Shown one piece after another: positions 1 to 63,918 of a stretch of 64,000 nt of DNA. Position numbers and translations under genes: made by a program. Position 1 is the stretch's first letter, and each line of letters opens with the position of its first letter. Origin of the DNA: Abditibacterium sp. (lineage in GTDB: Bacteria > Armatimonadota > Abditibacteriia > Abditibacteriales > Abditibacteriaceae); the NCBI GenBank assembly GCA_965199495.1, contig CBDASK010000003.1, forward strand, positions 1,792,001-1,856,000, given 5' to 3'. The notes beneath the pieces were generated by a model, which worked only from the letters and a program-made list of their open reading frames with translations, was not told the origin of the DNA and made no database searches.

Positions 1-401
1 TCGCGCCGCTTTACGGCGGCCTGATCATTGACAATCTCACGCGCCAAGCGAGCATGGCCGTGGCTGGCACGGTGCTGGGCCAAGACCCGGCAACTTTCGC
101 GCGCGAAAAAGCCCTTGATGCGGGCAAGCAAACTCTAAGCGCCGCGCGCGAAGGCCGTTTGCGCGAAGAATTGGACAATTTGCGAATTCAAGCCCGCAAT
201 GCAGCCACGCCGATGGCGCGCAAGCAAGCGGTGGATCGGGCGCAGCAAATTGTCAAAGAATTGGCGGCGGGGGGCAAAGATACCGGCGTGTCTCTGCTCA
301 AATCGGGCGTCGCACAATTGTCGGCGTTCACGCTGCTGGTCTGGGCTTTAATCGGCCCACCAATGGGCGCGGCGTGGGAATGCCACAAAACTAAAAGATA
401 A
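1..401 (+). CDS. 3' part of a hypothetical protein, probably truncated by the window edge
   Basis: Frame is open from the window start to TAA at 399-401; hydrophobic C-terminal segment. Confidence 0.5.
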   Translation, partial: APLYGGLIIDNLTRQASMAVAGTVLGQDPATFAREKALDAGKQTLSAAREGRLREELDNLRIQARNAATPMARKQAVDRAQQIVKELAAGGKDTGVSLLKSGVAQLSAFTLLVWALIGPPMGAAWECHKTKR

Positions 402-486
402 TTGTCATCTTCACAATCGCGTTGTCTTGCCCGGCGAACTTCACTAAAATATGGGAATCTCAGCTTATCTGAGAGCTTTCTTAAAA

Positions 487-1263
487 ATGGATTTTTCTTG
501 GATAAATAGCCCCGCCGGTTGGATCGCGCTTTTGACTTTAACTTTGCTCGAAATCGTTCTGGGCATTGATAACGTCATTTTCATCTCGATATTATCGGGC
601 AAACTGCCGCTCGAACAACGCGACAAAGCGCGCAAATTAGGTTTGACGCTGGCGCTCGTCACGCGCATTTTGCTGTTGCTTGGCATCTCGTGGATCGCCA
701 AATTGACGACGCCCTTATTCGAGTTACCTTTGGCGTGGGCGGGCATGGGCGAAGAACAGCGCGGCATTTCGGGCCGCGATATTATTCTTATCGTCGGCGG
801 ATTATTTCTGCTGGCGAAGTCGGTTCACGAGATTCATCACAAACTCGAAGGCCACGATGACCCCGAATTAGCCAGCGTGGCTGCATCGTTCGCCTCGGTC
901 ATCGCACAAATTTTGGTTTTGGATGTGGTGTTTTCGCTCGATAGCGTCATCACCGCCGTAGGCATGGCCGACAACATGACGATAATGATTGCAGCCGTGA
1001 TGATCGCCATCGGTTTCATGTTAATATTCGCCGGGCCGATCTCGAATTTCGTCGAAAAACATCCAACGGTCAAAATGCTGGCGCTTTCGTTTTTGCTGCT
1101 CATCGGCATGACTTTGGTCGCCGAAGGTTTCGAGCAACACATTCCCAAAGGCTACATTTACTTCGCGATGGCATTCGCCGTTATGGTTGAACTGTTGAAT
1201 TTGCGCTTGCGCAAACCAAACGATAAAGCGGTGGAGTTGCACGAACCGGATTCGGTAGGCTAA
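487..1263 (+). CDS. TerC family integral membrane protein
   Basis: LEIVLGIDN, DVVFSLDSVITAVG and KGYIYFAMAF motifs typical of TerC; multiple TM helices. Confidence 0.92.
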   Translation: MDFSWINSPAGWIALLTLTLLEIVLGIDNVIFISILSGKLPLEQRDKARKLGLTLALVTRILLLLGISWIAKLTTPLFELPLAWAGMGEEQRGISGRDIILIVGGLFLLAKSVHEIHHKLEGHDDPELASVAASFASVIAQILVLDVVFSLDSVITAVGMADNMTIMIAAVMIAIGFMLIFAGPISNFVEKHPTVKMLALSFLLLIGMTLVAEGFEQHIPKGYIYFAMAFAVMVELLNLRLRKPNDKAVELHEPDSVG

Positions 1264-1272
1264 TTCAAACAC

Positions 1273-1310
1273 AGAAAACCCCGCCGCTCTTTCGAGCGAC
1301 GGGGTTTTCT
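1273..1310. terminator. Bidirectional intrinsic terminator between convergent TerC gene and fusA
   Basis: AGAAAACCCCGCCGCTC-TTTC-GAGCGACGGGGTTTTCT hairpin flanked by A/T tracts. Confidence 0.8.
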
Positions 1311-1326
1311 ACATTCACGCAACGAA

Positions 1327-3450
1327 CTAACGCTTGACGCCGTTGACTGCTTCCAGAATTTCGGTCTGGACATTACTCGGCACCTGCGCGTATTTGCTCG
1401 GCTCCATCGTATACGTTGCGCGGCCCTGCGTCATCGAACGCATCGAGGTCGCGTAGCCGAACAGTTCCGACAACGGCACTTCGGCCTTGACGATTTGGGC
1501 GCCGCCTTTGTCGGGACGCATTTCGACGATCATGCCGCGACGAGAACTCAGGTCGCCGATGATGTCGCCCATGTTTGCTTCGGGCGTCACGACTTCCATC
1601 GCCATGATCGGCTCCAGAATCACCGGATTGGCTTTGCGAGCCGCCTCGCGCAGACCTTCGGCACCCGCCAACTCGAACGTCATCGCGTTGGAGTCCACGT
1701 CATGATACGAGCCGTGAACTAATTCGACGCGCACGTTTTCCAGCGGATAGCCCGCGATAATGCCGCGTTCCATCGCCGCTTTGCAGCCTTTTTCGACCGG
1801 CCCCCAGAACTCGCGCGGCACCACGCCGCCGACGACTTTGCTCTCGAACTCGAACGGCGCGCGCACGCCGTCTTCGTTTGGCTCGGTCGGCATCACGTTG
1901 ATGACGATGTCGGCGAACTGACCCGAACCGCCCGTCTGCTTCTTGTGAACGTAGCGATACTGGTCAACCGATTTGGTAATCGCCTCGCGATACGCCACTT
2001 GCGGCGCGCCGATGTTGGCCTCGACGTTGTATTCGCGCTTCATGCGATCCACCATGATTTCAAGGTGCAACTCGCCCATGCCGCCGATAATCGTCTGACC
2101 GGTTTCGGCGTCGTTGCGCACGCGGAAGGTCGGGTCTTCGCCCGCCAATTTCACCATCGCGTCGGTCATCTTCTGCTCGTCGGCCTTGGTTTTGGCCTCG
2201 ATGGACTGAAAGATAACCGGCTCGGCGAAGTTGATGTTTTCGAGCAGAATCGGGTTGTTCTCGTCGCAAATCGTGTCGCCCGTGACGGTGTCGGACATTC
2301 CGATGGCGGCGACGATGTCACCGGCTTCGGCGTAATCCAAATCCTTGCGGGTGTTGGCGTGCATCTGAAGGATGCGCGAGATGCGCTCTTTCTTGCCCTT
2401 GCCCGAATTCAAGACATACGAACCCTTCTGCAAGCGGCCCGAATAAACGCGAATGTAGGTCAGGCGACCGAACTTGTCCGAGACGATTTTGAACGCCAGC
2501 GCCGAGAATGGCTCGTCGGGCGAGGGCAGACGCGAAGTCGAATCTTCCGTGCCGGGGACGGTGCCCATGATGGCGGGCGTGTCAATCGGCGACGGCAAAA
2601 ACTCGATAACCGCGTCCAACATCGGCTGCACGCCCTTGTTCTTGTAGGACGAGCCGCAGACGACGCCGATGATGTCGGTTTTGAGCGTGGCGGCGCGGAT
2701 GCCCTTGCGGATTTCCTCTTCGGTCAGCTCGACGCCTTCCAGATATTTCTCCATCAATTCGTCGTCGGCCTCGGCAGCCACGTCCACCAACTGCGCGCGC
2801 AATTCGACGGCTTTGTCCATCAAATCGGCGGGAATTTCGCTTTCCGAAAACGTCGAACCCAACTTGTCGGATTCGGTGTAGCGGACGGCTTTCATGGTGA
2901 TCAAATCAACGACGCCCGCGAAATCGGCTTCGGCGCCGATGGGAATCTGAAGCGGGACGGGATTAGCGCCCAGACGCTCTTTCAACTGGCCCACGACTTC
3001 GTAGAAGTTGGCGCCATCGCGATCCATTTTGTTGATGTAGGCGATGCGCGGCACGCCGTAACGGTTGGCCTGACGCCACACGGTTTCGGATTGCGGCTGC
3101 ACGCCGCCCACGGCACAAAACACCGCGACGAGTCCGTCCAAAACGCGCAGGCTGCGCTCGACTTCGACGGTGAAGTCAACGTGTCCGGGCGTGTCGATGA
3201 TGTTGATGGTGTGCTGGGGGAACTGCTTTTTGGAGCCGTCCCAGAAGCACGCCGTGGCTGCACTTGTAATGGTGATGCCGCGTTCCTGTTCCTGGGCCAT
3301 CCAGTCCATCGTGGCGGCTCCGTCGTGGACTTCGCCGATGCGGTGGCTGACGCCGGTGTAGAACAAAATGCGTTCGGTTGTGGTAGTTTTACCGGCGTCG
3401 ATGTGAGCAGCGATACCGATGTTGCGAGTCAAAGAGAGGTCTTTCGCCAT
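1327..3450 (-). CDS. fusA: Elongation factor G (stand-alone, outside an rpsL-rpsG operon)
   Basis: [34 protein letters not shown] and HDVDS motifs; 707 aa. Confidence 0.98.
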
Positions 3451-4582: not shown

Positions 4583-4834
4583 TCATTCCGTTTTGCGGGC
4601 GCGACGCAAATTGTCCAACGTTTTGCGCGTGCCGGGATTGGCTCGATTTTCTTCGCGCGCGCGATTCGCAGCAGCCACGTCGCGTTCGTCCTCCAACTCT
4701 TCGCGTTCTTCATCTCTCAGAGTGGAAACCGCCAAACGCCGCGCGATTTCGGCTTCGACCGAAACGCCGCGCTCGGCGGCTTGCTCGCGCGGGCGCGCTT
4801 CGAGTTGCGGTTCGATTTCGATGGTGAGTGACAT
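4583..4834 (-). CDS. Small hypothetical protein, antitoxin-like
   Basis: MSLTIEIEPQLEAR...AAERGVSVE resembles RHH-type antitoxin N-termini; acidic C-terminal half. Confidence 0.5.
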   Translation of the reverse strand: MSLTIEIEPQLEARPREQAAERGVSVEAEIARRLAVSTLRDEEREELEDERDVAAANRAREENRANPGTRKTLDNLRRARKTE

Positions 4835-6219: not shown

Positions 6220-7554
6220 ATGACACCCAACCAAACTTCGCCCAATCGCGTGCAATTTATGCTGCGCGCGCTGCAACATCGCAATTATCGGCTGTTTTTC
6301 GGCGGGCAACTCGTGTCGCTGGTCGGCAACTGGATGACGCAGATCGCCATGACGTGGCTGGTCTATAAGCTCACCCATTCGGCCTGGACGCTCGGTTTGG
6401 TCGGCTTTTCCGGCCAGATTCCCGCGTTTTTGCTCGGCCCGTTCGCGGGCGTTATCGTTGACCGTTTGCCGCGTCACCGTTTGTTGGTTGTCACGCAAAT
6501 TGCGGCGATGATTCAGTCGGGGATTTTGGCGATTCTAACTTTAACGAATCATATTACCGTTCCACATATCATCGTTTTAATTGTGATTCAGGGAGTTATC
6601 AACGCATTCGATATTCCGGCGCGGCAGGCGTTTGTCGTTGAAATGGTGGACAACAAAGACGACCTGAGCAACGCCATCGCGCTCAACTCTTCAATGTTCA
6701 ATCTGGCGCGTCTGGCCGGGCCTGCCGTCGGCGGCCTTCTCATCGCTGCCGTGGGAGAAGGTTGGTGTTTCGCGCTCGATGCACTCAGTTATATTGCGGT
6801 GATTATCGCTCTGTTAATGATGCGCGTGGCGCCGCACGTCACGCAGTCGAAGCGCGGCAACGCCGTGCAGGAATTGCGCGAAGGTTTGGCTTACGTGGTG
6901 AAATCGGCGCCGATTAGCGCGATTTTGATTTTGCTGGCAGCCATGAGTTTGTTCGCCATGCCCTACGGCGTTTTGACGCCGATTGTCGCGGGCAAAACTC
7001 TGGGGGGCGGCCCGAATGTTCTGGGATATTTGATGGCGGCTTCGGGTTTTGGCGCGTTGTCTGCCGCCTTGGTTTTGGCGGCGCGCGCCAGCATTCGCGG
7101 ATTGGGCCGCCAAATTCCCTATTGCGTTGCCGCGTTTGGAATTGGCTTAATTGGCTTCGGATTTTCGACCAACTTGTATCTTTCGATGGCGCTTTTGTGG
7201 GTGATGGGTTTCGCGGGCATGACGCAGATGGCTTCGTGCAACACGATTTTGCAGACGATTGTCGAGGACGCCAAGCGCGGTCGCGTGATGAGTTTTTACA
7301 CGATGGCGTTCATGGGCGTGATGCCGTTTGGCAGTCTGGGCGCGGGCGCTCTGGCCGATCACATCGGCGTTTCACACACGCTCTTAATTGGCGGCATCGG
7401 TTGCCTCGCCGTGGCTGCGTGGTTCGGCACGCGCTATCCGGTTTTGCGCGACATCGTGCGCCCGATTTACGACCAAATGGGCATTGCGCCCGCCATCGCG
7501 CGCGGTCTGGATGACGCGGCAGAATTGAATACGCCGCCGGTCAGATCAGCGTAG
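6220..7554 (+). CDS. MFS transporter (MFS_3-like)
   Basis: ALQHRNYRLFFGGQLVSLVG N-terminus; motif A GVIVDRLPRH; about 12 TM. Confidence 0.9.
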   Translation: MTPNQTSPNRVQFMLRALQHRNYRLFFGGQLVSLVGNWMTQIAMTWLVYKLTHSAWTLGLVGFSGQIPAFLLGPFAGVIVDRLPRHRLLVVTQIAAMIQSGILAILTLTNHITVPHIIVLIVIQGVINAFDIPARQAFVVEMVDNKDDLSNAIALNSSMFNLARLAGPAVGGLLIAAVGEGWCFALDALSYIAVIIALLMMRVAPHVTQSKRGNAVQELREGLAYVVKSAPISAILILLAAMSLFAMPYGVLTPIVAGKTLGGGPNVLGYLMAASGFGALSAALVLAARASIRGLGRQIPYCVAAFGIGLIGFGFSTNLYLSMALLWVMGFAGMTQMASCNTILQTIVEDAKRGRVMSFYTMAFMGVMPFGSLGAGALADHIGVSHTLLIGGIGCLAVAAWFGTRYPVLRDIVRPIYDQMGIAPAIARGLDDAAELNTPPVRSA

Positions 7555-7579: not shown

Positions 7580-9181
7580 ATGGCAACTCAAACACTCGCT
7601 CAAAACGTGAACGATGAAGAAGAACTCAATCCCTATCGCTGGATCATTCTGTTTGGTCTGGTCACGGCGGCGATTTTGGAAGTTCTCGATACCACAATTG
7701 TCAACGTGGCGTTGCCGCAAATGGCGGGCAATCTGGGCGCGACTTTTCAGGAGATTAGTTGGGTTTCGACCGGCTACATTTTGTCCAACGTCGTGGTCTT
7801 GCCGATGACGGCGTGGCTGGCGGCGCGCTTCGGGCGCAAACGCTATCTGGCCGCCTCGATTTTGCTGTTTATGATCGCGTCGGCGCTCTGTGGCACGTCG
7901 CGGTCGCTGGGCGAATTGGTTTTGTGGCGCATCATGCAGGGCGCGGGCGGCGCGGCTTTGCTTTCGACGGCGCAATCCACCATCCGCGAAATTTTCCCGT
8001 TTGAACAGCAGGGCATGGTGCAGTCCATTTACGTGATGGGCCTGATTTGCGCGCCCACCGTTGGGCCGACATTGGGCGGCTGGATTACCGATAATTATTC
8101 GTGGCCGTGGGTCTTTTTCGTCAACATTCCCATCGGCATCATCTCTTTTTTCACCGTCACCAGCTTTTTGCAGGACAGCAAATTTAGCGTTGACGCCGGT
8201 AAAGTGGATTGGTGGGGCATCGGATTTTTGGCGGTCGGATTGTCGTCGCTGCAATACGTTTTGGAAGAAGGCAACCGCGAAGATTGGTTCGCCAGCACGC
8301 TCATCGTGCGGCTCTCGATTGTGTCGGCCATCAACATCGCGCTGTTTCTGTGGTGGGAACTTTCGTCCAAAAACAAACAGCCGATTGTCAATCTGCGCGT
8401 CTTGAAAAACCGCGATTTGAGCGCGGCGATGGCGCTGTTTCTGGCGCTGGGCTTTGGGCTTTACGGCGGCGTTTTCATCTTCCCATTGTTCGCCCAAAAC
8501 ATCCTGCATTTCACGCCGACGATCACCGGTTTGGTGTTGATGCCGGGCGCCATAGCCACCGGCGTCGCGGCGATTCTTTCCGGGCGTTTGCTCAACGGCG
8601 CCACGCAACGCATCAGCCCGCGCTATATCATTATTTTCGGCATGATCCTGTTCATCACCTCGATGTGGGATTTGGGCCATCTCACCATTTTTAGCGGCGA
8701 ACCCGACGTGCGAATCGCGCTGATTATTCGTGGCTTTGGTTTGGGCTGTCTGTTTTCGCCGATCAATCTGGCGGCGCTTTCTTCGCTGCGAGGCGCCGAA
8801 ATCCCGCAGGGCGTGAGCCTGCTCAACCTGATGCGACAGTTGGGCGGCTCGTTTGGTATCGCGTATTTAAGCACGCACATCGCCAACATGACGCAGAGGC
8901 ATCACGCCGATTTGGTGCAAAATATCTATCCCGGCAACCCCGCCTTTGAAGAGCGCATGAGCGCCATGACGGGCGCCTTCGTCGCCCGTGGCTACGATGC
9001 CGTTGATGCGCACACGGCGGCGCTGGCCAGCATCGCGGGCATGGTTCAAACGCAAGCCGCCGTGATGAGTTATAACGACGCGTTCTTGCTCATCGGTTTG
9101 GCGACGCTCATCGTTTCGCCGTGCGTTTTTCTGTTGCGCGCCAAGTTCACCAAAGTCGCGGGCGCCGATGCTGGACACTAA
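7580..9181 (+). CDS. DHA2 (EmrB/QacA) efflux MFS permease
   Basis: LDTTIVNVALPQM, WPWVFFVNIPIG and NLMRQLGGSFG motifs. Confidence 0.93.
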   Translation: MATQTLAQNVNDEEELNPYRWIILFGLVTAAILEVLDTTIVNVALPQMAGNLGATFQEISWVSTGYILSNVVVLPMTAWLAARFGRKRYLAASILLFMIASALCGTSRSLGELVLWRIMQGAGGAALLSTAQSTIREIFPFEQQGMVQSIYVMGLICAPTVGPTLGGWITDNYSWPWVFFVNIPIGIISFFTVTSFLQDSKFSVDAGKVDWWGIGFLAVGLSSLQYVLEEGNREDWFASTLIVRLSIVSAINIALFLWWELSSKNKQPIVNLRVLKNRDLSAAMALFLALGFGLYGGVFIFPLFAQNILHFTPTITGLVLMPGAIATGVAAILSGRLLNGATQRISPRYIIIFGMILFITSMWDLGHLTIFSGEPDVRIALIIRGFGLGCLFSPINLAALSSLRGAEIPQGVSLLNLMRQLGGSFGIAYLSTHIANMTQRHHADLVQNIYPGNPAFEERMSAMTGAFVARGYDAVDAHTAALASIAGMVQTQAAVMSYNDAFLLIGLATLIVSPCVFLLRAKFTKVAGADAGH

Positions 9182-17047: not shown

Positions 17048-17057
17048 AAACTCAATT

Positions 17058-20006: not shown

Positions 20007-20014
20007 CAAAAAAT

Positions 20015-20228: not shown

Positions 20229-23443
<3,215 letters not shown>

Positions 23444-49363: not shown

Positions 49364-50176
49364 ATGTTTCTTCGTAACGTGAAACCCGAAGTCGCTTTCC
49401 TCGATAATCCCGATGCTCCTACAAACGGCCATTCCAATGGGGACAGCCACGGCGCGCCCGGCGAAGAGCCGCTCGATATGAGCCGCTTGCCCAAGCACAT
49501 CGCCATCATTATGGATGGCAACCGGCGCTGGGCCAAAGATCAGGGTTGGCGCGCGATTCGCGGCCACAGCGTCGGCGCCGACGTGACGCAAAACGTGATT
49601 CAGGAATGCGTGGATTTGGGCGTTCACGCGTTGACGCTTTATACGTTTTCGACCGAAAACTGGAAGCGTTCGAGCGCCGAAGTCGGCGCTTTGATGCGCC
49701 TGATTACGCGCAATTTGAAAAGCCAGTTGCCGCGCATGCAACGCAACAACGTGCAAATTCGCCACATCGGTTTGCGCGATAATTTGCCCGATTATCTGCT
49801 CAATCAGTTGGACGAATGCACAAACACGACGGTGAAAAACACCGGATTAGTGTTGAATTTGGCTTTGAATTACGGTGGACGCGCCGAAATCGCCGATACC
49901 TTTCGCAAATTGATGGGCAAAGTGCAAGACGGTTTATTAAAGGCCGAAGAGATTACCGAAGAAGTGATTGGCCGCGCGCTCTATACCGGCGATTTGCCCG
50001 AACCCGATTTGATGATTCGCACCGGCGGCGAAATGCGCATCTCCAACTTTTTGCCGTGGCAAATCGCCTACGCCGAACTGTGGATCACGCCAACGCTGTG
50101 GCCCGAATTCAAACCCGTCGAACTGCGCCACGCCATCCGCGAATTTCAGTTTCGCGACCGCCGCGTCGGAAGCTAA
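49364..50176 (+). CDS. uppS: Undecaprenyl diphosphate synthase
   Basis: HIAIIMDGNRRWA, FSTENWKR, NYGGR and RTGGEMRISNF motifs; follows frr. Confidence 0.96.
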   Translation: MFLRNVKPEVAFLDNPDAPTNGHSNGDSHGAPGEEPLDMSRLPKHIAIIMDGNRRWAKDQGWRAIRGHSVGADVTQNVIQECVDLGVHALTLYTFSTENWKRSSAEVGALMRLITRNLKSQLPRMQRNNVQIRHIGLRDNLPDYLLNQLDECTNTTVKNTGLVLNLALNYGGRAEIADTFRKLMGKVQDGLLKAEEITEEVIGRALYTGDLPEPDLMIRTGGEMRISNFLPWQIAYAELWITPTLWPEFKPVELRHAIREFQFRDRRVGS

Positions 50177-57034: not shown

Positions 57035-57814
57035 TTAATAAGCCGTCACTTGCTGCGTCAATCCGCCGTCCACGTAGTAGGTGCTGCCGGTCACGTAATC
57101 GGAATCGGACGAGGCCAGAAACGCAGCCACGGCGGCGACTTCTTCGGGCGTGCCGAAGCGGCCCCACGGAATTTCGCCAATCGCGGCGGCTTTGGCTTCG
57201 GGGCTATCCAAAACTTTCTGGTTGATCGGCGTGGCTATCGCGCCCGGCGCGATATTATTCACGTTGATTTTATGCGGCGCCAATTCCATCGCCAAATTGC
57301 GACAAACCATCCTCATACCGCCCTTGGAGGCGCAATACGCCGTGTAACCGGGAAACGGAATATCTTCGTGAACCGACGAGATATTAATGATTTTTCCGCC
57401 GTCGCCCTGCTTGACCATCTGTTGCGCGCCGATCTGCGAAACCACGAAACCGCCATAAAGGTTGACCGCAATCACTTTATTCCATTCGGCGTCGGTGACT
57501 TCGAGGAACGGTTTATTGATTTCGATGCCCGCGTTGTTGACGACGATATCAATGCGCCCAAACTTGGCGATAACATCGGCGAACATCTTTTCGACTTGGT
57601 CGCGCTGCGAAACATCGGCAGCCACGGCGATGCCGGTTTCGCCATAAGTTTTCTCGAAATCGTCCACCTCAGACTGCGAATCAGTGGCGTTCTGATTTAT
57701 CGGCAAGTAATTGACGGCGACGTGCGCGCCTTCCTGCGCGAATTTGGTGGCGATGCCCTTGCCAATGCCCGAATTGGCGCCCGTGATGAGCGCGACTTTA
57801 TCTTTGAGTTTCAT
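57035..57814 (-). CDS. SDR oxidoreductase, glucose 1-dehydrogenase-like
   Basis: TGANSGIG, NNAG, SSVHE, YCASK and PGAIATPIN motifs. Confidence 0.9.
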   Translation of the reverse strand: MKLKDKVALITGANSGIGKGIATKFAQEGAHVAVNYLPINQNATDSQSEVDDFEKTYGETGIAVAADVSQRDQVEKMFADVIAKFGRIDIVVNNAGIEINKPFLEVTDAEWNKVIAVNLYGGFVVSQIGAQQMVKQGDGGKIINISSVHEDIPFPGYTAYCASKGGMRMVCRNLAMELAPHKINVNNIAPGAIATPINQKVLDSPEAKAAAIGEIPWGRFGTPEEVAAVAAFLASSDSDYVTGSTYYVDGGLTQQVTAY

Positions 57815-57907: not shown

Positions 57908-59431
57908 TCAATCCGCCGTCGCGTCATCCAACAATTCAATCGGATGTTTGATTTGCACTTTCGGCCCGAACTTCTGCGCGCCCAGCATCAATTGCATCGC
58001 GCAACCGGGATTGCCGGTCACGCAAACCGTCGCGCCGGTTTGGCGAATTTTTTCCATTTTGCGTTTCAACAAATCGCTCGCCATTTGCGGTTGCGTGATG
58101 TTGTAAGTGCCCGCCGAACCGCAACACATCTCGCTTTCGGCGAGCGCGATAATTTGCGCGTTTGGCAACAGCGCCAACAGTTCGCGCGGCGGCAGTCGAA
58201 TGCCCTGACCGTGCGCCAAATGACAGGCGTCGTGATAAGTCACCGTCAATTCATTCTTCGGTTTCGGCTGCGGCAACTTCACGTCGTCGGTCAAATTAGA
58301 ATCGGCAGGTTCGGCCAATAATTGTTCATCGGGCGCGCCCGCCGAATCGCCTTCGTTCAGCGTCGCCGCGCCGCCGACGTTGGGCGTAGTTTCGCGCGCG
58401 ACATCCATTTCGCGCGCTTCCAATTTTTGATTTGGTGAAACATTCATTTGCGCGGCCAGCTTCTCTTTATAAGGAGACATCGCCAGCCATTCCGAGACAT
58501 CGCGGACTTTATCGGCCAAACGTTGTGCGCGCGCTTCCCACTCATCATCGCCCTTAAACCAGTGCGGATATTCCTTCAACGCCGAGCCGCAACCCGCCGC
58601 ATTAACGATAAAAGCGTCCCATTCGCCGTGTTCGCGCTGCCAATTTTCAAACGCCACGATATTGGCGCGCGCCAACGATTTCGCGGTTTCCATCGCGCCG
58701 GTGTGCGCGTGCATTGCGCCACAACAATTTTGCGATTTTGGCGCACTTACTTCGCAACCCACGCGCGTCAACACGCGCGCCGTGGCTGCATTGACGTGGG
58801 GCAACATGACGGGCATCACGCAACCAGTCAGCATTCCGACATTCGCGGTTTTCTCGCCCTTCGCCGCCCATTTTTGTGGAAATTTATGGCGTCGGCCCGG
58901 TGCGGGCAAAGGCGGCAACAACATTTCCATATCGCCCAATTGTCCGAACCATTTCATCACGCCCAACTTGCGCATTAACGGCAAAACGCCGGTTTTACGC
59001 AAAACGCGAATCGGAAATAGAAGCGGCTCCAACCGATTCGGATAGGGAAATGTGTTTTCGGCGGCTTTGAGAATCAACGCGTCTTTGCGGCTTTTGCGAA
59101 CGCCGGTTTCGCGCAAATGCGCGCGCGTGCCTTCCAATAAATAGCCGTATTGCACGCCCGAAGGACACGCCGTCTCGCAGCCACGACAACCCAGACAACT
59201 GTCCAAATGCGCGACAACATCGGGCGTGGCTTCGATGCGTTGCTCGAACAACGCGCGCATTAAATAGATGCGACCGCGCGGCGAATCGGCTTCGACGCCG
59301 TTCTCAGCATAAGTCGGGCACTGCGACAGACACAAACCGCAGTGAATGCAATCCATCAAACGCTCATGTTCGATATGCAAATTGGCGATGCCAACTTTGT
59401 GGCGCGGTGTGAGTTCGATGGGTTGCGACAT
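57908..59431 (-). CDS. glcF: Glycolate oxidase iron-sulfur subunit
   Basis: CIHCGLCLSQCPTY, CLGCRGCETACPSGV, two CCG domains and YHDACHL. Confidence 0.88.
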   Translation of the reverse strand: MSQPIELTPRHKVGIANLHIEHERLMDCIHCGLCLSQCPTYAENGVEADSPRGRIYLMRALFEQRIEATPDVVAHLDSCLGCRGCETACPSGVQYGYLLEGTRAHLRETGVRKSRKDALILKAAENTFPYPNRLEPLLFPIRVLRKTGVLPLMRKLGVMKWFGQLGDMEMLLPPLPAPGRRHKFPQKWAAKGEKTANVGMLTGCVMPVMLPHVNAATARVLTRVGCEVSAPKSQNCCGAMHAHTGAMETAKSLARANIVAFENWQREHGEWDAFIVNAAGCGSALKEYPHWFKGDDEWEARAQRLADKVRDVSEWLAMSPYKEKLAAQMNVSPNQKLEAREMDVARETTPNVGGAATLNEGDSAGAPDEQLLAEPADSNLTDDVKLPQPKPKNELTVTYHDACHLAHGQGIRLPPRELLALLPNAQIIALAESEMCCGSAGTYNITQPQMASDLLKRKMEKIRQTGATVCVTGNPGCAMQLMLGAQKFGPKVQIKHPIELLDDATAD

Positions 59432-60588: not shown

Positions 60589-60600
60589 AGCGGGCTTAGT

Positions 60601-61575
60601 TTATGCGCACAATTGTTCGAGCCAAAATTTCGTCGTCGCGCCGCGCACGATATGATAAATCGCCGTCTGAGCAGCCACGTCGACGGGATGTTTGGCGGTT
60701 TCCCACAATCGGCCCGATAACGCGAAATGATTGGCGCCGTGAATTACCAATTTTTGCTTCAAACCTTCGGGCGCGTGCCGATAAGTTTCTAATTTCTCGC
60801 GATAACTGCGGCCCCACACGGTTTTATCGCGGTCGCCGGTAATCAGCAAAAATGGCGCAGTTAAAGTTTTCCACACGCTTTTGGGCAGACGTTTGGCGCC
60901 GTGTTCGCCCGAAATTGACAAAACCGCTTTGAAGCGTCGGTCGCGCATCGAAAAGCGACCGTTACGCGCCATCAACTGCGCGCCACCCATCAAGCACGCG
61001 ACGTGCGCGCCATACGAATAGCCGCCGATGCCGATGCGATTCACGTCAATGCGCCCGTCAAAATCGCCGATTTCATCTAATAAACGCGAAATGTCGTTGC
61101 ACCTCGCGCGCCACATTCGCTCTTCGCCCAGAACCAAACCCCAAACGTCCCACGTCGTGCGCCAGTGCGCCCACAAAACCGATCTGGAAACGTGATGATA
61201 ATGGGTGAACGAATCGAAGTGAACCGGCTGCAACACCACAAAGCCGTGGCTGGCCCAGTGATGCGCCAGATCGATATAGCCTGAACCGTCGTCGCCGCCG
61301 CCGCCCGAAAATACAATCGCCGGAAACGGCCCGTCGCCAACCGGAGTAGTCACGCGATAACGCGCCTCGCTGCCTTCGCGAATCGGGAAAAACTCTGAAT
61401 TGACGATGGCGCCATAGCCGCCATCTTCGTAATCATGCGGGCCAGTTGCGGCCAGTGGCTGCAATTCTTCGGGCACGCGTTGCAAGGGCGCCGCGCAGTT
61501 CGTCAGTTCGGGGTAAAAGCGCGCCAGTTGATAGACGACGCGCGCGGTTTGATACCATTCAAAAGGGCCAAGCAC
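60601..61575 (-). CDS. Alpha/beta hydrolase (chlorophyllase/dienelactone-hydrolase-like)
   Basis: GYSYG nucleophile elbow, TGDRD and GANH. Confidence 0.82.
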   Translation of the reverse strand: MLGPFEWYQTARVVYQLARFYPELTNCAAPLQRVPEELQPLAATGPHDYEDGGYGAIVNSEFFPIREGSEARYRVTTPVGDGPFPAIVFSGGGGDDGSGYIDLAHHWASHGFVVLQPVHFDSFTHYHHVSRSVLWAHWRTTWDVWGLVLGEERMWRARCNDISRLLDEIGDFDGRIDVNRIGIGGYSYGAHVACLMGGAQLMARNGRFSMRDRRFKAVLSISGEHGAKRLPKSVWKTLTAPFLLITGDRDKTVWGRSYREKLETYRHAPEGLKQKLVIHGANHFALSGRLWETAKHPVDVAAQTAIYHIVRGATTKFWLEQLCA

Positions 61576-61598: not shown

Positions 61599-61696
61599 CG
61601 GGGTGACGCCGATTTATCGCGCCTAAAACGTTAAGTTCGCTTCGACGTTTAGGAATGCGATACGTTTTAGACGCGATAAATCGGCGTCTCTACGGG
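61599..61696. repeat. REPIN-like element, family A (diverged)
   Basis: GACGCCGATTTATCGCGCCTAAAACGT ... ACGTTTTAGACGCGATAAATCGGCGTCTCTACGGG. Confidence 0.75.
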
Positions 61697-61752
61697 AGCA
61701 AACGCGCGAAAACCTCACGCCAAACAGCGCGAGGTTTTTTGCGGCTCAAAGT

Positions 61753-62259
61753 TTAATTGTGAGCGTTGCCATTGCTCTCATAGCCGTTGGGATTGTAGCC
61801 GGTTAAAGCCGTCATCTCATCCGCCGAAGGCGCGTCGGGACGCGTGATGCCGGGCGTGTAGGCGGTCACATGAGGAGCCACGGCGCCGGGCAACATCGTG
61901 GTTTCGTTGTTGTATTCGAGGCCGCGACGCAATACGCAGGTCTCGACTTCGGCCAAGCCAAACGCTTCCATCAACAAGTCGCAGGTATAAGCCGGATCGA
62001 ACTCTTTGCACGAGAACACATCAATGGCGACTTCGCCGCGTTCGGGAAAAGTGTGAACCGAGATGTGCGATTCGGCGATCATGACGAAACCGGAAATGCC
62101 CCAATCTTCGGGCGTGACGCCGACATAACGCGTCACAATCGGTGGCATGATTTTCGTCATGTTGATGCGGCCCGGCAAGGTGTCGAGCAGTTCGTAGAGA
62201 GCGGGCAAATCCTGGAGTTTGTGCCAGTCGCCACCGCGACCTTCGATGATGAGATGCAT
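61753..62259 (-). CDS. speD: S-adenosylmethionine decarboxylase proenzyme family (pyruvoyl-dependent)
   Basis: MHLIIE; IAESHISVHTFPE self-cleavage motif; DVFSC; GGGAGG SD before ATG at 62259. Substrate could be Arg/Orn in some homologs. Confidence 0.88.
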   Translation of the reverse strand: MHLIIEGRGGDWHKLQDLPALYELLDTLPGRINMTKIMPPIVTRYVGVTPEDWGISGFVMIAESHISVHTFPERGEVAIDVFSCKEFDPAYTCDLLMEAFGLAEVETCVLRRGLEYNNETTMLPGAVAPHVTAYTPGITRPDAPSADEMTALTGYNPNGYESNGNAHN

Positions 62260-62642
62260 AATATGAGCTGCCTCCCTGGCAGCGTTTGGCCGGGGCATTG
62301 TGACCCCAAAACCGAAAAAAGCCCGACAGTTAGAAATCCAGTGAGCGTGCCCAATTAAGGCGACGTGGCTACAAGTGAGTGAGACAATTGAACTGGATTT
62401 TTTAGGAACCGGGCTGACCTCCTGCGGCAATGAAATTCACAGAGAAGGGGCCGCCCTTCAATTTCTCTGCGGCTTATTGGAGCGTCTTTCGCGGCGAGAC
62501 TTCGTGAAACTGGGCAAAAAAAAGCCACACCGAAATGGAAATGTGTCCATTTGCAACGGGAAATTCCCGGGTGCGACTTAATTGCTGGATTTCATTGAAG
62601 AATCGAACTGCCGTTCCAAACGCTTTTAAGCGGATTTATTAT
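62260..62642 (-). promoter_or_regulatory. Long structured 5' leader of speD with -10 box, uORF and terminator-like element
   Basis: TATAAT at 62637-62642; ATG AAA TCC AGC AAT TAA at 62595-62578; branched stem followed by U8. Confidence 0.55.
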
Positions 62643-62715
62643 ACGAATTTTGCGCGCGTTTGGTTGCGATTTTTCGTTGATACTTTGCCAAAAACTGAAC
62701 GCTTGAAAACCCGCC

Positions 62716-63918
62716 TTAATCGCTTTCGCTCTGGCGCTTTTTCTCTTCGCCCTTCAACAGTTCGTGCGCCGCGCGCATATAATCGGGAATTCGAGCGGCA
62801 AACGGACTGCTTTTGAGTTGGGCGCCCAAAGTTTCCCAGCCGCGTTCGTCCAGAACTTTGACGTTTTCGCCGGGAAACCAATGGCCCGCGTTGCCCAGCA
62901 GGTTGTAGCGCATTTTGCCCCACTCGACCAAATCCAGACTTTTGGCGTAAAGATACAAACGCAAAATTTCGCGCACGTTGACATCGCCGACCAAGTCGTA
63001 ATGTTCGGGCAAATTTTCGTTCCAATTTTGGCACCATTCGGCGCCAAACTCGCGCTCCATTTCGGCGCGCAAACGCGTTTCAATCGGCGCGATTGTCGCC
63101 GCGATATCGTCGTAGAATTCGAGCGCGTCAACGTGCGCATCGAAATCGGACGGACGCGCGGCGCCAATTGACAAAGTGTGAACTTCGGGTTTGTTCAGGC
63201 ACCACAAATCGTTGAAACCCATCGGCGTGAGCGGCTCGCAGAGTTCTTCCATTTTGCGCGGTGGCTCGAACAATTTGCCGCCTTTTTCCGACGGCGAAAT
63301 GATAAACACGCCCATGTCGTGGCGCGTGGCTGCTTCAATCGAGGGCCAATTTAATTCGTTGACGAAATAATAGTGCAGGTTGACGTAATCGAATTCGCCG
63401 GTTTCATTGGCCGTCGTAATCATCCGTTCCGAGCCGTGCGTCGAGTAGCCGACGAAACGCACGCGGCCTTCGCGTTGCAACTGGCGCGCGACTTCCATGC
63501 AGCCACCGCGCAGCAAAACTTGATCGGTCAATTCCTGCGTGTTGATGCCGTGAAACGACAACAAATCGACGTAATCGAGTTTCAGATAATCCATCGATTT
63601 CTCGAAGGTTTTCAAGAACTCTTTCGGGTCTTCGTTTGGCCCGACTTTGGTCTGGATAATCATCTTCTCGCGCGGCAACTTGGGCAAAATCCAGCCCAAC
63701 TGCATCTCGGACGAACCGTAGCCACGCGCCGTCTCGATGTGGTTGATGCCCAGTTCGAGAGCGCGATGAATCGTCTGTTCGAGATTTTCCTGCTGTGCGG
63801 CTTCGATTTCGTCGGGTGCGAGGTCTTTCCACGCTTGTTGGTAGCGCATTCCGCCACAGGAAAAGACGGGCATTTGCAGTTCGGTGCGCCCAAAACGGCG
63901 ATATTTCATGTTCGACAT
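62716..63918 (-). CDS. Aldo/keto reductase family protein
   Basis: YRRFGRTEL, GINHIETARGYG, IIQTKV and GYSTHG motifs. Confidence 0.9.
   Translation of the reverse strand: MSNMKYRRFGRTELQMPVFSCGGMRYQQAWKDLAPDEIEAAQQENLEQTIHRALELGINHIETARGYGSSEMQLGWILPKLPREKMIIQTKVGPNEDPKEFLKTFEKSMDYLKLDYVDLLSFHGINTQELTDQVLLRGGCMEVARQLQREGRVRFVGYSTHGSERMITTANETGEFDYVNLHYYFVNELNWPSIEAATRHDMGVFIISPSEKGGKLFEPPRKMEELCEPLTPMGFNDLWCLNKPEVHTLSIGAARPSDFDAHVDALEFYDDIAATIAPIETRLRAEMEREFGAEWCQNWNENLPEHYDLVGDVNVREILRLYLYAKSLDLVEWGKMRYNLLGNAGHWFPGENVKVLDERGWETLGAQLKSSPFAARIPDYMRAAHELLKGEEKKRQSESD

What the first reader, a model, noticed from the sequence alone, without database searches (positions are those of the whole stretch)
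201..63333. Strongly over-represented non-palindromic 9-mer GCAGCCACG: candidate DNA-uptake or HIP-like genome signature
Seen (manual count): GCAGCCACG at 201, 2774, 4671, 14359, 16294, 18274, 26940, 30081, 30831, 34176, 52188, 57123, 57618, 59177, 60671. Its complement CGTGGCTGC at 876, 3253, 7410, 10882, 12027, 17978, 30188, 35802, 38962, 51210, 58781, 63325. That is 27 exact copies, plus roughly 18 more of the 8-mer core CAGCCACG. A simple base-composition estimate predicts about 1 copy of the 9-mer in 64 kb. Copies lie inside unrelated genes and are read in different frames (A-A-T, V-A-A, T-W-L, S-S-H, R-G-C), often using GCA/GCT codons that seem otherwise uncommon here, so the constraint appears to act on DNA rather than protein. 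I saw none in the rRNA or AT-rich inserts. Established: Neisseria DUS, Pasteurellaceae USS and cyanobacterial HIP1 show this pattern, while Chi and KOPS are strand-polarised. Inference: a lineage-specific uptake, recombination, methylation-repair or nucleoid-protein binding signal; I do not recognise this motif from any described system.
Basis: partly seen in the sequence, partly recalled or inferred. Interest (0 to 1): 0.85.

Follow-up and report, generated by a model that had tools for sequence, protein, structure and literature searches.

The report
Strand-tracked genome-wide 12-mer in a planctomycete
A short DNA word is written about 2,800 times across this bacterium's chromosome against the grain of its codon usage, and copies on the same strand keep about 1 kb apart while copies on opposite strands ignore each other, which points to an undescribed strand-reading "self" signal for DNA recombination or uptake.

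Summary
All 27 copies sit at the stated coordinates, against 0.63 expected from shuffles. The motif is genome-wide. The chromosome holds 1,780 copies of GCAGCCACG. The real unit is wGC-AGCCACG-B-CG, and its core AGCCACGBCG has 2,799 copies (1,407 on one strand, 1,392 on the other) with no replichore polarity.

The constraint acts on DNA, not protein:
- Synonymous-codon shuffles give 94 copies against 1,645 observed in coding DNA.
- 563 of 1,435 Ala-Ala-Thr tripeptides are spelled with the motif, against 13 expected.
- Synonymous sites inside the motif are 3.3 times more conserved between sister species.

The motif is missing from the plasmid, the phage-like contig, integrated mobile elements and rRNA. 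Among 27 genomes of the family it occurs only in a clade of three species.

New here: same-strand copies exclude each other within about 1 kb (g 0.1-0.25 below 500 nt), while opposite-strand copies are independent. Samples of Neisseria DUS and E. coli Chi did not show this pattern.

The three carriers lack the AddB-like protein found in all ten congeners. They carry a Dna2-like nuclease-helicase instead, but that protein is not sufficient for a motif elsewhere.

Best reading (about 0.35): a self signal read on one strand for recombination, Chi-like in logic. The mechanism is unproven.

The parts
201..209 (+). GCAGCCACG copy (followed by CCG: full unit)
876..884 (-). GCAGCCACG copy (9-mer only)
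2774..2782 (+). GCAGCCACG copy (9-mer only), inside EF-G gene
3253..3261 (-). GCAGCCACG copy, full unit, inside EF-G gene
4671..4679 (+). GCAGCCACG copy, full unit
7410..7418 (-). GCAGCCACG copy, full unit
7809..7819 (-). core-only copy CAGCCACGCCG (no leading G)
10882..10890 (-). GCAGCCACG copy, full unit
12027..12035 (-). GCAGCCACG copy, full unit
14359..14367 (+). GCAGCCACG copy, full unit
16294..16302 (+). GCAGCCACG copy, full unit, inside DNA methylase gene
17978..17986 (-). GCAGCCACG copy, full unit
18274..18282 (+). GCAGCCACG copy, full unit
24825..24835 (-). core-only copy CAGCCACGCCG; conserved in G004
26940..26948 (+). GCAGCCACG copy, full unit; conserved in G004
30081..30089 (+). 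GCAGCCACG copy, full unit; G004 and G011 differ by substitutions
30188..30196 (-). GCAGCCACG copy, full unit; conserved in G011, one-off in G004; convergent partner of 30081
30831..30839 (+). GCAGCCACG copy, full unit; conserved in G011; G004 has CCGCCGCCACGGCG (substitutions, no indel)
34176..34184 (+). GCAGCCACG copy (9-mer only)
35802..35810 (-). GCAGCCACG copy, full unit; absent at the aligned place in G006 and G012
38962..38970 (-). GCAGCCACG copy (9-mer only)
40156..40166 (+). core-only copy CAGCCACGACG (rare A at the variable position); conserved in G011
44134..44144 (-). core-only copy CAGCCACGCCG; conserved in G011
49108..49118 (-). core-only copy CAGCCACGGCG
49444..49454 (+). core-only copy CAGCCACGGCG
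51210..51218 (-). GCAGCCACG copy, full unit
52188..52196 (+). GCAGCCACG copy, full unit
57123..57131 (+). GCAGCCACG copy, full unit
57618..57626 (+). GCAGCCACG copy, full unit
58781..58789 (-). GCAGCCACG copy, full unit
59177..59185 (+). GCAGCCACG copy (9-mer only)
60671..60679 (+). GCAGCCACG copy, full unit
63325..63333 (-). GCAGCCACG copy (9-mer only)

Best explanation
The word wGC-AGCCACG-B-CG is a lineage-specific 'self' signal. I propose it is read on one DNA strand, or in one direction, by the recombination machinery. It is Chi-like in logic but is not classical Chi.

Proposed working:
1. A motor-nuclease moves along one strand of a broken chromosome end, or of incoming DNA from relatives. 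It degrades or rejects the DNA until it meets the word in the right orientation, then hands the DNA to recombination.
2. DNA carrying the word is therefore kept and recombined preferentially. Alleles that spell the word spread by selection, by biased gene conversion, or by both. They spread even at the cost of rare codons and amino-acid changes.
3. Once one copy serves a stretch of a strand, a second copy on the same strand within about 1 kb adds nothing. That leaves a per-strand 'shadow'. The other strand is a separate track.
4. Recently arrived DNA (plasmid, phage, islands) lacks the word.

Shown: DNA-level constraint, lineage restriction, origin by substitution, strand symmetry, same-strand exclusion, and absence from mobile DNA.

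For: - Scale and sharpness: AGCCACGBCG has 2,799 copies. The 11-mer CAGCCACGGCG has 1,051 copies against 11.7 expected from a Markov-3 model. One-off variants in the AGCCAC core are at or below expectation, for example CAGCCGCGGCG 0 against 27.9.
- DNA-level force: shuffles give 94 or 55 copies against 1,645 observed. 563 of 1,435 AAT tripeptides use the motif (12.9 expected). 732 of 1,834 VAA tripeptides use GTGGCTGC (67.6 expected). The AAT and VAA peptides are 1.5-fold enriched.
- Conservation between G000 and G011: synonymous differences per motif codon are 0.067 against 0.224 in the background. Against the motif-less G006, non-synonymous differences are 0.438 against 0.262. Motif windows are conserved in 92 of 141 cases, against 26-33% for phase-matched controls.
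- Strand-specific reading: same-strand pair correlation is 0.0-0.26 below 400 nt, about 0.5 at 500-700 nt, and about 1 beyond 1.5 kb. Opposite-strand g is about 1 throughout.
- Adjacent pairs within 120 nt: 138 inverted against 12 direct.
- Permutation among AAT/VAA candidate sites: same-strand pairs within 500 nt are 10 observed against 85.8 +/- 8 (minimum 60 of 300 permutations). Opposite-strand pairs are 98 against 105.8.
- The exclusion follows the DNA strand, not the transcript sense. In neighbouring genes of opposite orientation there are 13 same-strand against 51 opposite-strand pairs.
- The exclusion is strongest between full 12-mers, g 0.07-0.14 below 500 nt. It is replicated in 400-kb samples of G011 and G004.
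- Self marker: plasmid C1 has 0 copies against 14.6 expected. Phage-like C2 has 2 against 38.3. The chromosomal deserts hold serine recombinases, ParB and DUF932.
- Origin by substitution with nested accumulation. G000 sites are kept in G011 in 96 of 145 cases, in G004 in 28 of 136, and in G006 in 0 of 27. Indels occur at 3 of 145 and 3 of 136 sites.
- Enzyme swap: an AddB-like 1,124-aa protein is found in 10 of 10 non-carriers of the genus and in 0 of 3 carriers. Long AddA-like UvrD_C ORFs are seen in G006 and G012 but not in the 3 carriers.
- A 1,421-aa PD-(D/E)XK nuclease plus SF1 helicase is found only in the 3 carriers of the genus. Its best solved relative by sequence is mouse DNA2, an enzyme described as threading ssDNA through a tunnel (abstract of PMC4716839, seen in the listing).
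Against: - There is no replichore polarity at all, 1,407 against 1,392, and no correlation with GC skew. That polarity is the hallmark of known Chi sites.
- E. coli Chi itself shows no same-strand exclusion. Among the first 100 forward sites there are 10 pairs within 500 nt against 9.5 expected (my count on the listing). The spacing argument is therefore logic, not precedent.
- Known Chi readers are absent: RecC in 0 of 13 genomes and AddB-like in 0 of 3 carriers.
- The Dna2-like candidate is weak. The three carriers are one clade, so the co-occurrence is a single evolutionary event.
- The G011 copy covers only residues 680-1421 and is split by a frameshift, yet G011 keeps the motif.
- Homologues at 39-45% identity in G141 (340 kb), G049 (60 kb) and G016 (60 kb) come with no comparable motif.
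- G017 has the homologue and a hyper-abundant word, but that word is a non-coding palindromic hairpin.
- No directional asymmetry of divergence is seen around sites.
- A 10-12-nt site kept about 2,800 times needs a strong force, and none was demonstrated.
Confidence: 0.35

Rival explanations
1. DUS/USS-like DNA uptake signal. A surface or periplasmic receptor of a competence system prefers DNA with the word, and the word accumulates by molecular drive through transformation. One variant has the word read on the single strand that enters the cell. That variant would also give per-strand tracks and overlaps with the best explanation.
For: - The pattern is the same in kind as DUS/USS: a non-palindromic word, equal on both strands, evenly spread, lineage-specific and rare in mobile DNA.
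- ComEC (862 aa), DprA and 6-8 secretins are encoded.
- DUF1559 proteins with prepilin N-methylation motifs are present in the window.
- In G004 the shared core CAGCCACGT sits as inverted pairs in terminator-like intergenic hairpins. 50 of 51 close pairs are in the same arrangement, which recalls DUS pairs in Neisseria terminators.
- As in Haemophilus and Neisseria, the word shapes the proteome (PMC2817400, abstract in the listing).
Against: - Spacing is strand-specific in G000. In a 400-kb Neisseria sample the depletion at 100-500 nt is mild and alike for same-strand pairs (g 0.47-0.80) and opposite-strand pairs (0.44-0.88).
- In Haemophilus, uptake was reported as independent of orientation (PMC1939737, passages).
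- Copies are enriched in coding DNA, with 7.5% non-coding against 14.2% of sequence. DUS/USS are reported as over-represented in non-coding DNA (PMC1939737, passages).
- Competence genes are equally present in non-carriers.
- No ComP_DUS domain was found in 13 genomes, but the control rang nowhere, so this is uninformative.
- I found no report of natural transformation in Planctomycetes. The six papers mention the terms only in passing, judged from titles and abstracts.
Confidence: 0.25
2. HIP1-like signature. The word is kept by a modification or repair system (a methyltransferase with a VSP-type or other biased mismatch correction) or serves chromosome structure through a nucleoid protein. 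The spacing would reflect packing rather than recombination.
For: - Purifying constraint on synonymous sites and a quasi-regular spacing parallel what is reported for HIP1 (PMC13756078, abstract and passages).
- The depletion of some one-off neighbours, such as 0 against 27.9 and 0 against 11.9, is what biased correction toward the word would give.
- C5 methyltransferases are present in all three carriers.
Against: - The word is not a palindrome.
- Vsr is found only in G004. G000 has only a sub-threshold 24.5-bit match.
- The window's N4/N6 methylase and the C5 methylases do not track the motif across the genus.
- Ten to eleven specified bases are more than usual methyltransferase sites have (general knowledge).
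- A double-strand-binding structural protein does not explain why only same-strand copies repel each other.
Confidence: 0.2
3. Remnants or targets of a mobile element (REP/RAYT, MITE) that spread by copy and paste.
For: G004 and G017 carry hairpin families with long conserved arms in intergenic DNA. G000 has its own GTAG-type REP doublets.
Against: - In G000 nothing is conserved beyond 12-13 nt.
- 92.5% of copies lie inside genes in several frames.
- Orthologous comparison shows substitutions, not insertions, with 3 of 145 and 3 of 136 sites at indels.
- In the G004 hairpins the inner and outer stem parts vary while the 18-nt arms stay fixed. That is not what simple copying gives.
Confidence: 0.03
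4. By-product of codon, dicodon or peptide bias with no DNA-level function.
For: Two frames (AAT and VAA) hold 75% of coding copies.
Against: - The shuffles give 17-fold to 30-fold fewer copies.
- The word uses rare Ala codons.
- It is absent from 24 of the 27 family genomes, which share the general codon style.
- Same-strand exclusion is not reproduced by permuting among the same peptides.
Confidence: 0.01

Closest known systems
DNA uptake sequences: Neisseriaceae DUS and Pasteurellaceae USS
   Same: - A short non-palindromic word in about a thousand or more copies, equal on both strands, with no replichore bias.
- Lineage-specific 'dialects', rarity in mobile DNA, and an imprint on codons and peptides.
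- In G004, inverted pairs in terminator-like hairpins.
   Different: - The phylum is different (Planctomycetota, inferred), and no transformation is known there.
- The word is enriched in coding DNA rather than non-coding DNA.
- Same-strand copies exclude each other within about 1 kb while opposite-strand copies do not. The Neisseria sample showed only mild, orientation-blind depletion.
- No ComP-type receptor domain was found (uninformative control).
Chi (crossover hotspot instigator) sites of RecBCD/AddAB
   Same: - An over-represented oligomer of the resident chromosome that marks 'self'.
- Chi is read on one strand in one direction, which is the simplest way to get independent per-strand tracks.
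- The carriers differ from their congeners precisely in the end-processing helicase-nuclease.
   Different: - No leading-strand skew.
- 10-12 nt rather than 5-8 nt (the Chi lengths are recalled).
- About 90-fold enrichment, against about 4-fold for E. coli Chi measured against its reversed control.
- RecC and AddB-like proteins were not found in the carriers.
- E. coli Chi shows no same-strand exclusion.
HIP1 (GCGATCGC) of cyanobacteria
   Same: Hyper-abundant, conserved in coding DNA by purifying selection, quasi-regular spacing, function still debated (PMC13756078, passages).
   Different: HIP1 is a palindrome tied to two methylases and is phylum-wide. This word is asymmetric, is restricted to three species, and no methylase tracks it.
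REP/REPIN elements with RAYT transposases
   Same: Hundreds of copies. G000 has true GTAG-type REP doublets, and G004 and G017 have hairpin families.
   Different: The G000 word is 12 nt long, has no hairpin, lies mostly inside genes and arose by point substitution.

Membership tests
DUS/USS uptake sequences | Hyper-abundant short asymmetric word, both strands equally, no replichore bias | tested here: met
   1,407 + and 1,392 - copies of AGCCACGBCG. 100-kb bins are flat.
DUS/USS uptake sequences | Competent cells take up DNA with the word preferentially | not testable with these tools
   Needs an uptake or transformation assay.
DUS/USS uptake sequences | Cognate receptor (ComP minor pilin with the ComP_DUS domain for DUS) | tested here: inconclusive
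   PF16732 matched in 0 of 13 genus genomes, but the control genomes did not ring either.
DUS/USS uptake sequences | Competence machinery encoded | tested here: met
   ComEC, DprA and 6-8 secretins are present in each of 5 genomes, carriers and non-carriers alike, so this does not discriminate.
DUS/USS uptake sequences | Orientation-independent action and spacing | tested here: not met
   Same-strand g is 0.0-0.26 below 400 nt, while opposite-strand g is about 1. The Neisseria DUS sample has g 0.47-0.80 (same strand) and 0.44-0.88 (opposite strand) at 100-500 nt.
DUS/USS uptake sequences | Excess in non-coding DNA and terminator pairs | tested here: not met
   In G000, 209 of 2,799 copies are non-coding or partial, against 14.2% non-coding sequence. 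G004 does have a hairpin class: 81 of 97 paired sites are non-coding.
Chi sites | Co-orientation with replication (leading-strand skew) | tested here: not met
   No polarity. Correlation with GC skew is r = 0.21, p = 0.16.
Chi sites | Recognised by RecBCD or AddAB | tested here: not met
   RecC (PF04257) in 0 of 13 genomes. The AddB-like protein is in 0 of 3 carriers and 10 of 10 non-carriers.
Chi sites | Read on one strand in one direction | tested here: inconclusive
   Per-strand exclusion fits this reading. It is indirect, and E. coli Chi lacks such exclusion.
Chi sites | Over-represented in the core genome and rare in foreign DNA | tested here: met
   C1 has 0 copies against 14.6 expected. 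C2 has 2 against 38.3. The deserts are mobile elements.
HIP1-type iterated palindromes | Palindromic word | tested here: not met
   GCAGCCACG differs from its reverse complement.
HIP1-type iterated palindromes | Cognate methyltransferases tracking the word | tested here: inconclusive
   The window MTase and the PF00145 genes do not follow the carrier/non-carrier split. No methylome is available.
HIP1-type iterated palindromes | Conservation by purifying selection and quasi-regular spacing | tested here: met
   Synonymous differences are 0.067 against 0.224 per codon. Same-strand gaps below 500 nt make up 3.3% against 13.8% for Poisson.
REP/RAYT or MITE | Intergenic palindromic unit with extended conserved sequence, spread by insertion | tested here: not met
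   Flanks carry no information beyond 12-13 nt. 92.5% of copies are in genes. Indels occur at 3 of 145 and 3 of 136 orthologous sites.
KOPS / architecture-imparting sequences | Strand polarity pointing to the terminus | tested here: not met
   The cumulative forward-minus-reverse count stays within +/-25 over about 2,800 sites.

The most novel reading that the evidence does not exclude
A previously undescribed class of genomic self signal. It is a 10-12-nt word read on single strands by a Dna2-like nuclease-helicase that replaced AddAB in a young planctomycete clade. The word spreads by biased gene conversion strong enough to rewrite about 40% of the matching tripeptides. Each copy casts a roughly 1-kb shadow on its own strand only. 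This would be a 'Chi without replication polarity', and its statistical footprint (per-strand exclusion) could be used to find such systems in other phyla.
Probability: 0.2. Interest if true: 0.9.

Novelty: new variant of a known kind. Interest (0 to 1): 0.8.

Why it matters
Hyper-abundant genome words with an established function are known from very few lineages: DUS, USS and Chi, with HIP1 still debated. This case lies in Planctomycetota (inferred), where neither natural transformation nor a Chi-type signal has been described in anything I could find.

The clade is young. Three species carry the word, at 81-87% DNA identity to each other in the compared stretches. Motif-free sister species are available, so gain of the system can be dissected by comparison.

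The per-strand exclusion zone is a new and easily computed statistic. In my samples it separates this word from both Neisseria DUS and E. coli Chi.

It would also give a handle for genetics in a phylum that is hard to manipulate.

Tried and rejected
- Chi/KOPS-type polarity: none.
- ComP_DUS receptor domain: no match in 13 genomes, with an uninformative control.
- Vsr endonuclease: a real match only in G004. It does not track the motif.
- Window N4/N6 methylase and C5 methylases: no carrier-specific pattern.
- RecC: absent from the whole genus.
- Competence genes ComEC, DprA and secretins: present everywhere tested, so uninformative.
- Dna2-like homologue as a sufficient cause. G141 (340 kb), G049 (60 kb) and G016 (60 kb) show no comparable word. 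Positive controls of 60 kb from G000 and G017 did show theirs.
- AddB-like query outside the genus: nothing rang in G017, G016, G020, G141 or G049, so mutual exclusion of the two enzymes could not be tested.
- Directional asymmetry of G000-G011 and G000-G004 divergence around oriented sites: flat.
- Compensatory turnover between G000-only and G011-only sites: 4 same-strand pairs against 4.3 expected, too few to say.
- Literature. The motif strings occur only as primer-like hits among the 20 listed of 487 papers. Planctomycetes plus 'DNA uptake sequence' gives 2 unrelated papers. Planctomycetes plus natural transformation gives 6 papers with passing mentions, judged by titles and abstracts. None of the 10 listed Chi/AddAB papers mentions Planctomycetes.
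- Earlier notes of this scan hold nothing on this motif.
A smaller one gave 60 kb of G016.
- Not run: a strictly dicodon-preserving shuffle, and a full orthogroup comparison of carriers against non-carriers.

Full report
**1. Observation**

The pattern search finds 27 GCAGCCACG in the window, 15 on + and 12 on -. 100 dinucleotide-preserving shuffles give a mean of 0.63 and a maximum of 4.

The window is G000:C3:1792001-1856000 of a 4.81-Mb assembly with three contigs. On the 4.72-Mb chromosome the 9-mer occurs 917 times forward and 863 times reverse. The two small contigs have 1 and 2 copies.

The window has 46 CAGCCACG, that is 19 beyond the 27 9-mers. It has none of the 7-mer core in the 23S/5S stretch.

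**2. The real unit**

Aligning all 1,780 sites shows information only from position -1 to +11: (A 49% / T 29%) GCAGCCACG (G 46%, C 32%, T 20%, A 3%) C 85%, G 79%. Nothing is conserved beyond that.

Single-mismatch counts around the 13-mer AGCAGCCACGGCG (349 copies) show a very sharp core. Changes within AGCCACG or the final CG leave 0-15 copies each. The leading G and C are softer, at 56-80 and 12-23 copies.

AGCCACG followed by GCG, CCG or TCG occurs 1,374 + 863 + 562 = 2,799 times. That is one per 1.7 kb, 1,407 forward and 1,392 reverse.

A Markov-3 model expects 11.7 CAGCCACGGCG where 1,051 occur. Several one-off neighbours in the core are at or below expectation: CAGCCGCGGCG 0 against 27.9, and CTGCCACGGCG 0 against 11.9.

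**3. The constraint is on DNA**

I used my own ORF-based gene calls: 3,632 genes covering 85.8% of the chromosome. This is a home-made caller, so the frames are approximate.

- 1,645 of 1,780 9-mers lie in genes.
- 563 read GCA-GCC-ACG (A-A-T) in sense. 676 read xxC-GTG-GCT-GCx (V-A-A) in antisense. 406 lie in the other four phases.
- Shuffling synonymous codons within genes leaves 94.2 +/- 7.0 copies. Shuffling codon order leaves 54.6 +/- 6.6 (30 shuffles each).
- 563 of 1,435 AAT tripeptides use the word, against 12.9 expected from codon usage.
- 732 of 1,834 VAA tripeptides use GTGGCTGC, against 67.6 expected.
- GCA and GCT are rare Ala codons, at 6.3% and 10.4%.
- The AAT and VAA peptides themselves are 1.5-fold over amino-acid expectation.

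**4. Who has it**

The pattern GCAGCCACGNCG was counted in 41 genomes: G000 and 40 relatives drawn from the genus out to the phylum.

| Genome | Count |
|---|---|
| G000 | 1,350 |
| G011 | 1,047 |
| G004 | 431 |
| each of the other 38 | 36 or fewer, like the reversed control |

In all 27 genomes held for the family, AGCCACGGCG gives 1,374, 1,198 and 304 in those three genomes and 59 or fewer elsewhere.

The three carriers are also the closest relatives. Identity to the window DNA is about 85-87% for G011 and 81% for G004. It is 75%, 73% and 71% for G006, G003 and G012.

Pfam hits in the window are ordinary housekeeping genes plus DUF1559/prepilin-type proteins. With the unlinked single 16S, this suggests Planctomycetota. 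That is an inference from general knowledge. No taxonomic tool named the organism.

**5. How sites arise and persist**

I fetched 400 kb each of G004, G011 and G006 and aligned them to G000.

| Comparison | Sites kept | Other outcomes |
|---|---|---|
| G000 sites in G011 | 96 of 145 | 28 one-off, 3 at indels |
| G011 sites in G000 | 96 of 123 | |
| G000 sites in G004 | 28 of 136 | |
| G004 sites in G000 | 28 of 38 | |
| G000 sites in G006 | 0 of 27 | |

The word therefore arises by point substitution and has accumulated in a nested way.

Motif windows are conserved between G000 and G011 in 92 of 141 cases, against 26-33% for phase-matched control windows. Between G000 and G004 the figures are 27 of 134 against 19-24%.

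Per codon inside the motif, synonymous differences between G000 and G011 are 0.067 against 0.224 in the background. Against the motif-less G006, non-synonymous differences are 0.438 against 0.262. The word is thus protected at silent sites, and making it has cost amino-acid changes.

**6. Where it is missing**

- Contig C1 (24.7 kb; RepA_C, TraG/TraD-type coupling protein) has 0 copies where chromosomal density predicts 14.6.
- Contig C2 (64.6 kb; Mu-type portal, S49 protease, tape-measure protein) has 2 copies where 38.3 are predicted.
- The longest chromosomal gaps, 23.6 kb at 429,846 and 23.1 kb at 1,203,633, hold large serine recombinases, ParB, DUF932 and a PD-(D/E)XK protein. These mark integrated mobile elements.
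Another called the second piece of the assembly a phage.

**7. The new feature: per-strand exclusion**

Among adjacent sites no more than 120 nt apart, 138 pairs are inverted and 12 direct.

Pair correlation g(d) over the whole chromosome:

| Distance | Same strand | Opposite strand |
|---|---|---|
| below 400 nt | 0.0-0.26 | about 1 |
| 400-500 nt | 0.26-0.39 | about 1 |
| 500-700 nt | about 0.48 | about 1 |
| 700-1,200 nt | 0.58-0.84 | about 1 |
| beyond 1.5 kb | about 1 | about 1 |

Opposite-strand pairs range from 0.84 to 1.36 across these distances. Tight palindromic pairs below 50 nt are the exception, at 1.6-1.9.

Controls and extensions:
- Only 3.3% of same-strand gaps are below 500 nt, against 13.8% for a Poisson process.
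- Permuting motif status among all AAT and VAA tripeptide positions gives 85.8 +/- 8.0 same-strand pairs within 500 nt (minimum 60 of 300 permutations), against 10 observed. It gives 105.8 +/- 9.4 opposite-strand pairs against 98 observed.
- The rule follows the DNA strand, not the transcript. In neighbouring genes of opposite orientation there are 13 same-strand against 51 opposite-strand pairs at 50-700 nt. Within genes, both sense-sense pairs (26) and antisense-antisense pairs (67) are rare against 363 mixed pairs.
- The exclusion is strongest between full 12-mers, with g 0.07-0.14 below 500 nt.
- It recurs in the G011 sample. Same-strand pairs are 0 observed against 8.7 expected below 200 nt, and 6 against 13.1 at 200-500 nt. 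Opposite-strand pairs are 11 against 8.5 and 21 against 12.9.
- It recurs weakly in G004's coding-type sites: 0 against 3.7 for same strand and 8 against 3.7 for opposite strand.

**8. Comparators**

In 400 kb of a commensal Neisseria (reached through), the DUS 10-mer has 241 + and 226 - copies. At 100-500 nt it shows g of 0.47-0.80 for same-strand pairs and 0.44-0.88 for opposite-strand pairs. This is a mild and orientation-blind depletion. There is also the known peak of convergent pairs below 50 nt.

For E. coli K-12 Chi, the first 100 forward-strand sites listed contain 10 pairs within 500 nt, where 9.5 are expected. This is my count on that listing. It covers the forward strand of the first 533 kb only.

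Neither paradigm therefore shows the strand-specific exclusion in these samples.

Passages of PMC1939737 state the following:
- Uptake in Haemophilus does not depend on the orientation of the sequence.
- 65% of uptake sequences in H. influenzae and 35% in N. gonorrhoeae lie in ORFs.
- Uptake sequences exceed expectation in non-coding DNA.

In G000 the opposite holds for location. 7.5% of sites are non-coding or partial, against 14.2% of the sequence.

**9. Relatives with related or other words**

G004 has two classes that share the core CAGCCACGT.
- The coding type is aGCAGCCACGtC, at 76 per 400 kb.
- The second type is an intergenic hairpin whose 18-nt arms, GACACCAGCCACGTCCTA, are fixed. The inner and outer stem parts vary but stay complementary. 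The hairpin is often followed by a T run. 50 of 51 close pairs have the same arrangement. 81 of 97 paired sites are non-coding, and 94 of 123 single sites are coding.

G006 has no such word. Its top k-mers are a CRISPR-like repeat.

**10. Candidate machinery**

- ComP_DUS: no match in 13 genomes, with an uninformative control.
- Vsr: only in G004.
- RecC: none in the genus.
- A PD-(D/E)XK search showed a split, which direct protein queries confirmed.
- The AddB-like 1,124-aa protein of G006 is found in 10 of 10 non-carriers and in none of the 3 carriers. It has a C-terminal PDDEXK_1 domain and weak rexB/addB matches.
- A 1,421-aa protein of G000 is found only in the carriers. It has a RecB-like nuclease at residues 112-288 and an SF1 helicase at residues 969-1372. 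G004 has it at 86% identity over the full length. G011 has only residues 680-1421, split by a frameshift.
- Long AddA-like UvrD_C ORFs occur in G006 and G012 but not in the three carriers.
- The best solved relative of the 1,421-aa protein by sequence is mouse DNA2, E = 7e-13 over the helicase part.
- A bacterial DNA2-like helicase-nuclease has been characterised as an ssDNA motor (PMC7430649, abstract only).

**11. Limits of that link**

The three carriers are one clade, so the co-occurrence counts as one event.

The homologue occurs in 21 of 401 sampled genomes of the phylum at E <= 1e-30.
- G017 (42% identity) has its own word, AGTACGGTCGA, with 1,188 + and 1,224 - copies. Each of the other 26 family genomes has 5 or fewer.
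- That word is mostly a 24-bp palindrome in non-coding DNA with A-run and T-run flanks. 275 of 379 sites are non-coding.
- G141 (340 kb, split gene), G049 (60 kb) and G016 (60 kb) show nothing comparable. Controls of 60 kb from G000 and G017 do show their words.

The protein is therefore not sufficient, and the G011 copy looks damaged although G011 keeps the motif.

ComEC, DprA and secretins are present in carriers and non-carriers alike. Methyltransferases do not track the motif.

**12. Interpretation**

Any explanation must account for six things:
- a roughly 90-fold excess of a sharp 10-12-nt word;
- silent-site conservation;
- amino-acid cost;
- absence from newcomer DNA;
- perfect strand symmetry;
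- a roughly 1-kb shadow on the same strand only.

A receptor for double-stranded DNA that ignores orientation, as reported for USS, predicts orientation-blind spacing. That is what the Neisseria sample shows and what G000 does not.

A reader that sees one strand makes each strand an independent track. Such a reader could be a translocating helicase-nuclease at DNA ends, or a factor acting on the single strand that enters during transformation. It also makes a second nearby copy on the same strand redundant.

I therefore prefer a strand-read recombination 'self' signal, with drive or selection through recombination with relatives' DNA, at about 0.35. A DUS-like uptake signal, including a single-strand-reading variant, stands at about 0.25. 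A HIP-like modification, repair or structural signal stands at about 0.2. Mobile-element and codon-bias explanations are essentially excluded for G000.

No bench evidence exists. E. coli Chi does not show the spacing rule that my argument rests on.

**13. Novelty**

Three sets of searches found nothing:
- The motif strings are not used as a genomic signal in the 20 listed of 487 papers that hold them.
- Searches for uptake sequences or transformation in Planctomycetes found nothing on either.
- A search for Chi in Planctomycetes found nothing.

HIP1 is reported as quasi-periodic and under purifying selection (PMC13756078, abstract and passages), but it is a palindrome.

I rate this a new variant of a known kind (hyper-abundant genome words). 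Its per-strand spacing property is one I did not find described.

Noticed in passing
window 20228-23442 (-) and 20014-20130 (-); L001 = G000:C3:1859471-1863987: The 23S rRNA match spans 3,215 nt against a 2,925-position model, which suggests an insertion or intervening sequence. The only 16S gene lies about 45 kb away on the other strand, so the rRNA genes are unlinked.
   Followed up: no
window about 36750-36840, between the genes ending at 36732 and starting at 36827: An inverted doublet of a GTAG-type REP-like element (GTAGAGACACCGACTTGTCGTGTCTAAAACG...). The 13-mer GTAGAGACACCGA occurs 153 times in G000. G004 holds many 83-93% identical copies on both strands.
   Followed up: partly
G000 chromosome (not located in the window): A family of 131 identical 14-mers that together read CTCACAAGACCCGATTAAAAC. 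It looks like a large CRISPR array repeat. G006 has an 85-copy repeat ending in ATTGAAAC within 400 kb.
   Followed up: no
window 15692-17083 (-): An N4/N6 DNA methylase (PF01555) lies directly beside a ParE/ParD toxin-antitoxin pair. Orthologues at 56-89% identity occur in several congeners, but none was found at that level in G004.
   Followed up: partly
G017 (L097-L116 = G017:C14:380001-780000): About 2,400 copies of AGTACGGTCGA, mostly as the 24-bp palindrome AGTACGGTCGAWWTCGACCGTACT flanked by A and T runs in non-coding DNA. This looks like a single conserved stem shared by a large share of terminator-like hairpins. It is unique to this genome among the 27 of the family.
   Followed up: partly
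G004 (L019-L038 = G004:C8:1600001-2000000): An intergenic hairpin family with fixed 18-nt arms (GACACCAGCCACGTCCTA) and variable but complementary inner and outer stem segments. This pattern is hard to explain by simple copy-and-paste.
   Followed up: partly
G000:C3:4111368-4115630 (-) and neighbours (L085): The carriers lack the AddB-like and AddA-like genes of their congeners. They carry a Dna2-like nuclease-helicase next to a bacterial topoisomerase IB gene.
   Followed up: partly
non-carrier genomes of the family (table): In most non-carriers AGCCACGGCG is rarer than its reversed control, for example G009 0 against 34, G006 11 against 45 and G012 13 against 50. This may be mere composition. 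I did not test it.
   Followed up: no
G000 contigs C1 and C2 (L397-L402): C1 is plasmid-like (RepA_C, type IV coupling protein). C2 is phage-like (Mu-type portal, S49 protease, 2,400-aa tape-measure protein, a LAGLIDADG-containing protein).
   Followed up: partly
whole genome G000: At only 55.7% G+C the most frequent 8- and 9-mers are CG-alternating words (CGCCGCGC 4,957 copies, CGCGCGCGC 3,093 copies). That is a strikingly CpG-rich composition.
   Followed up: no
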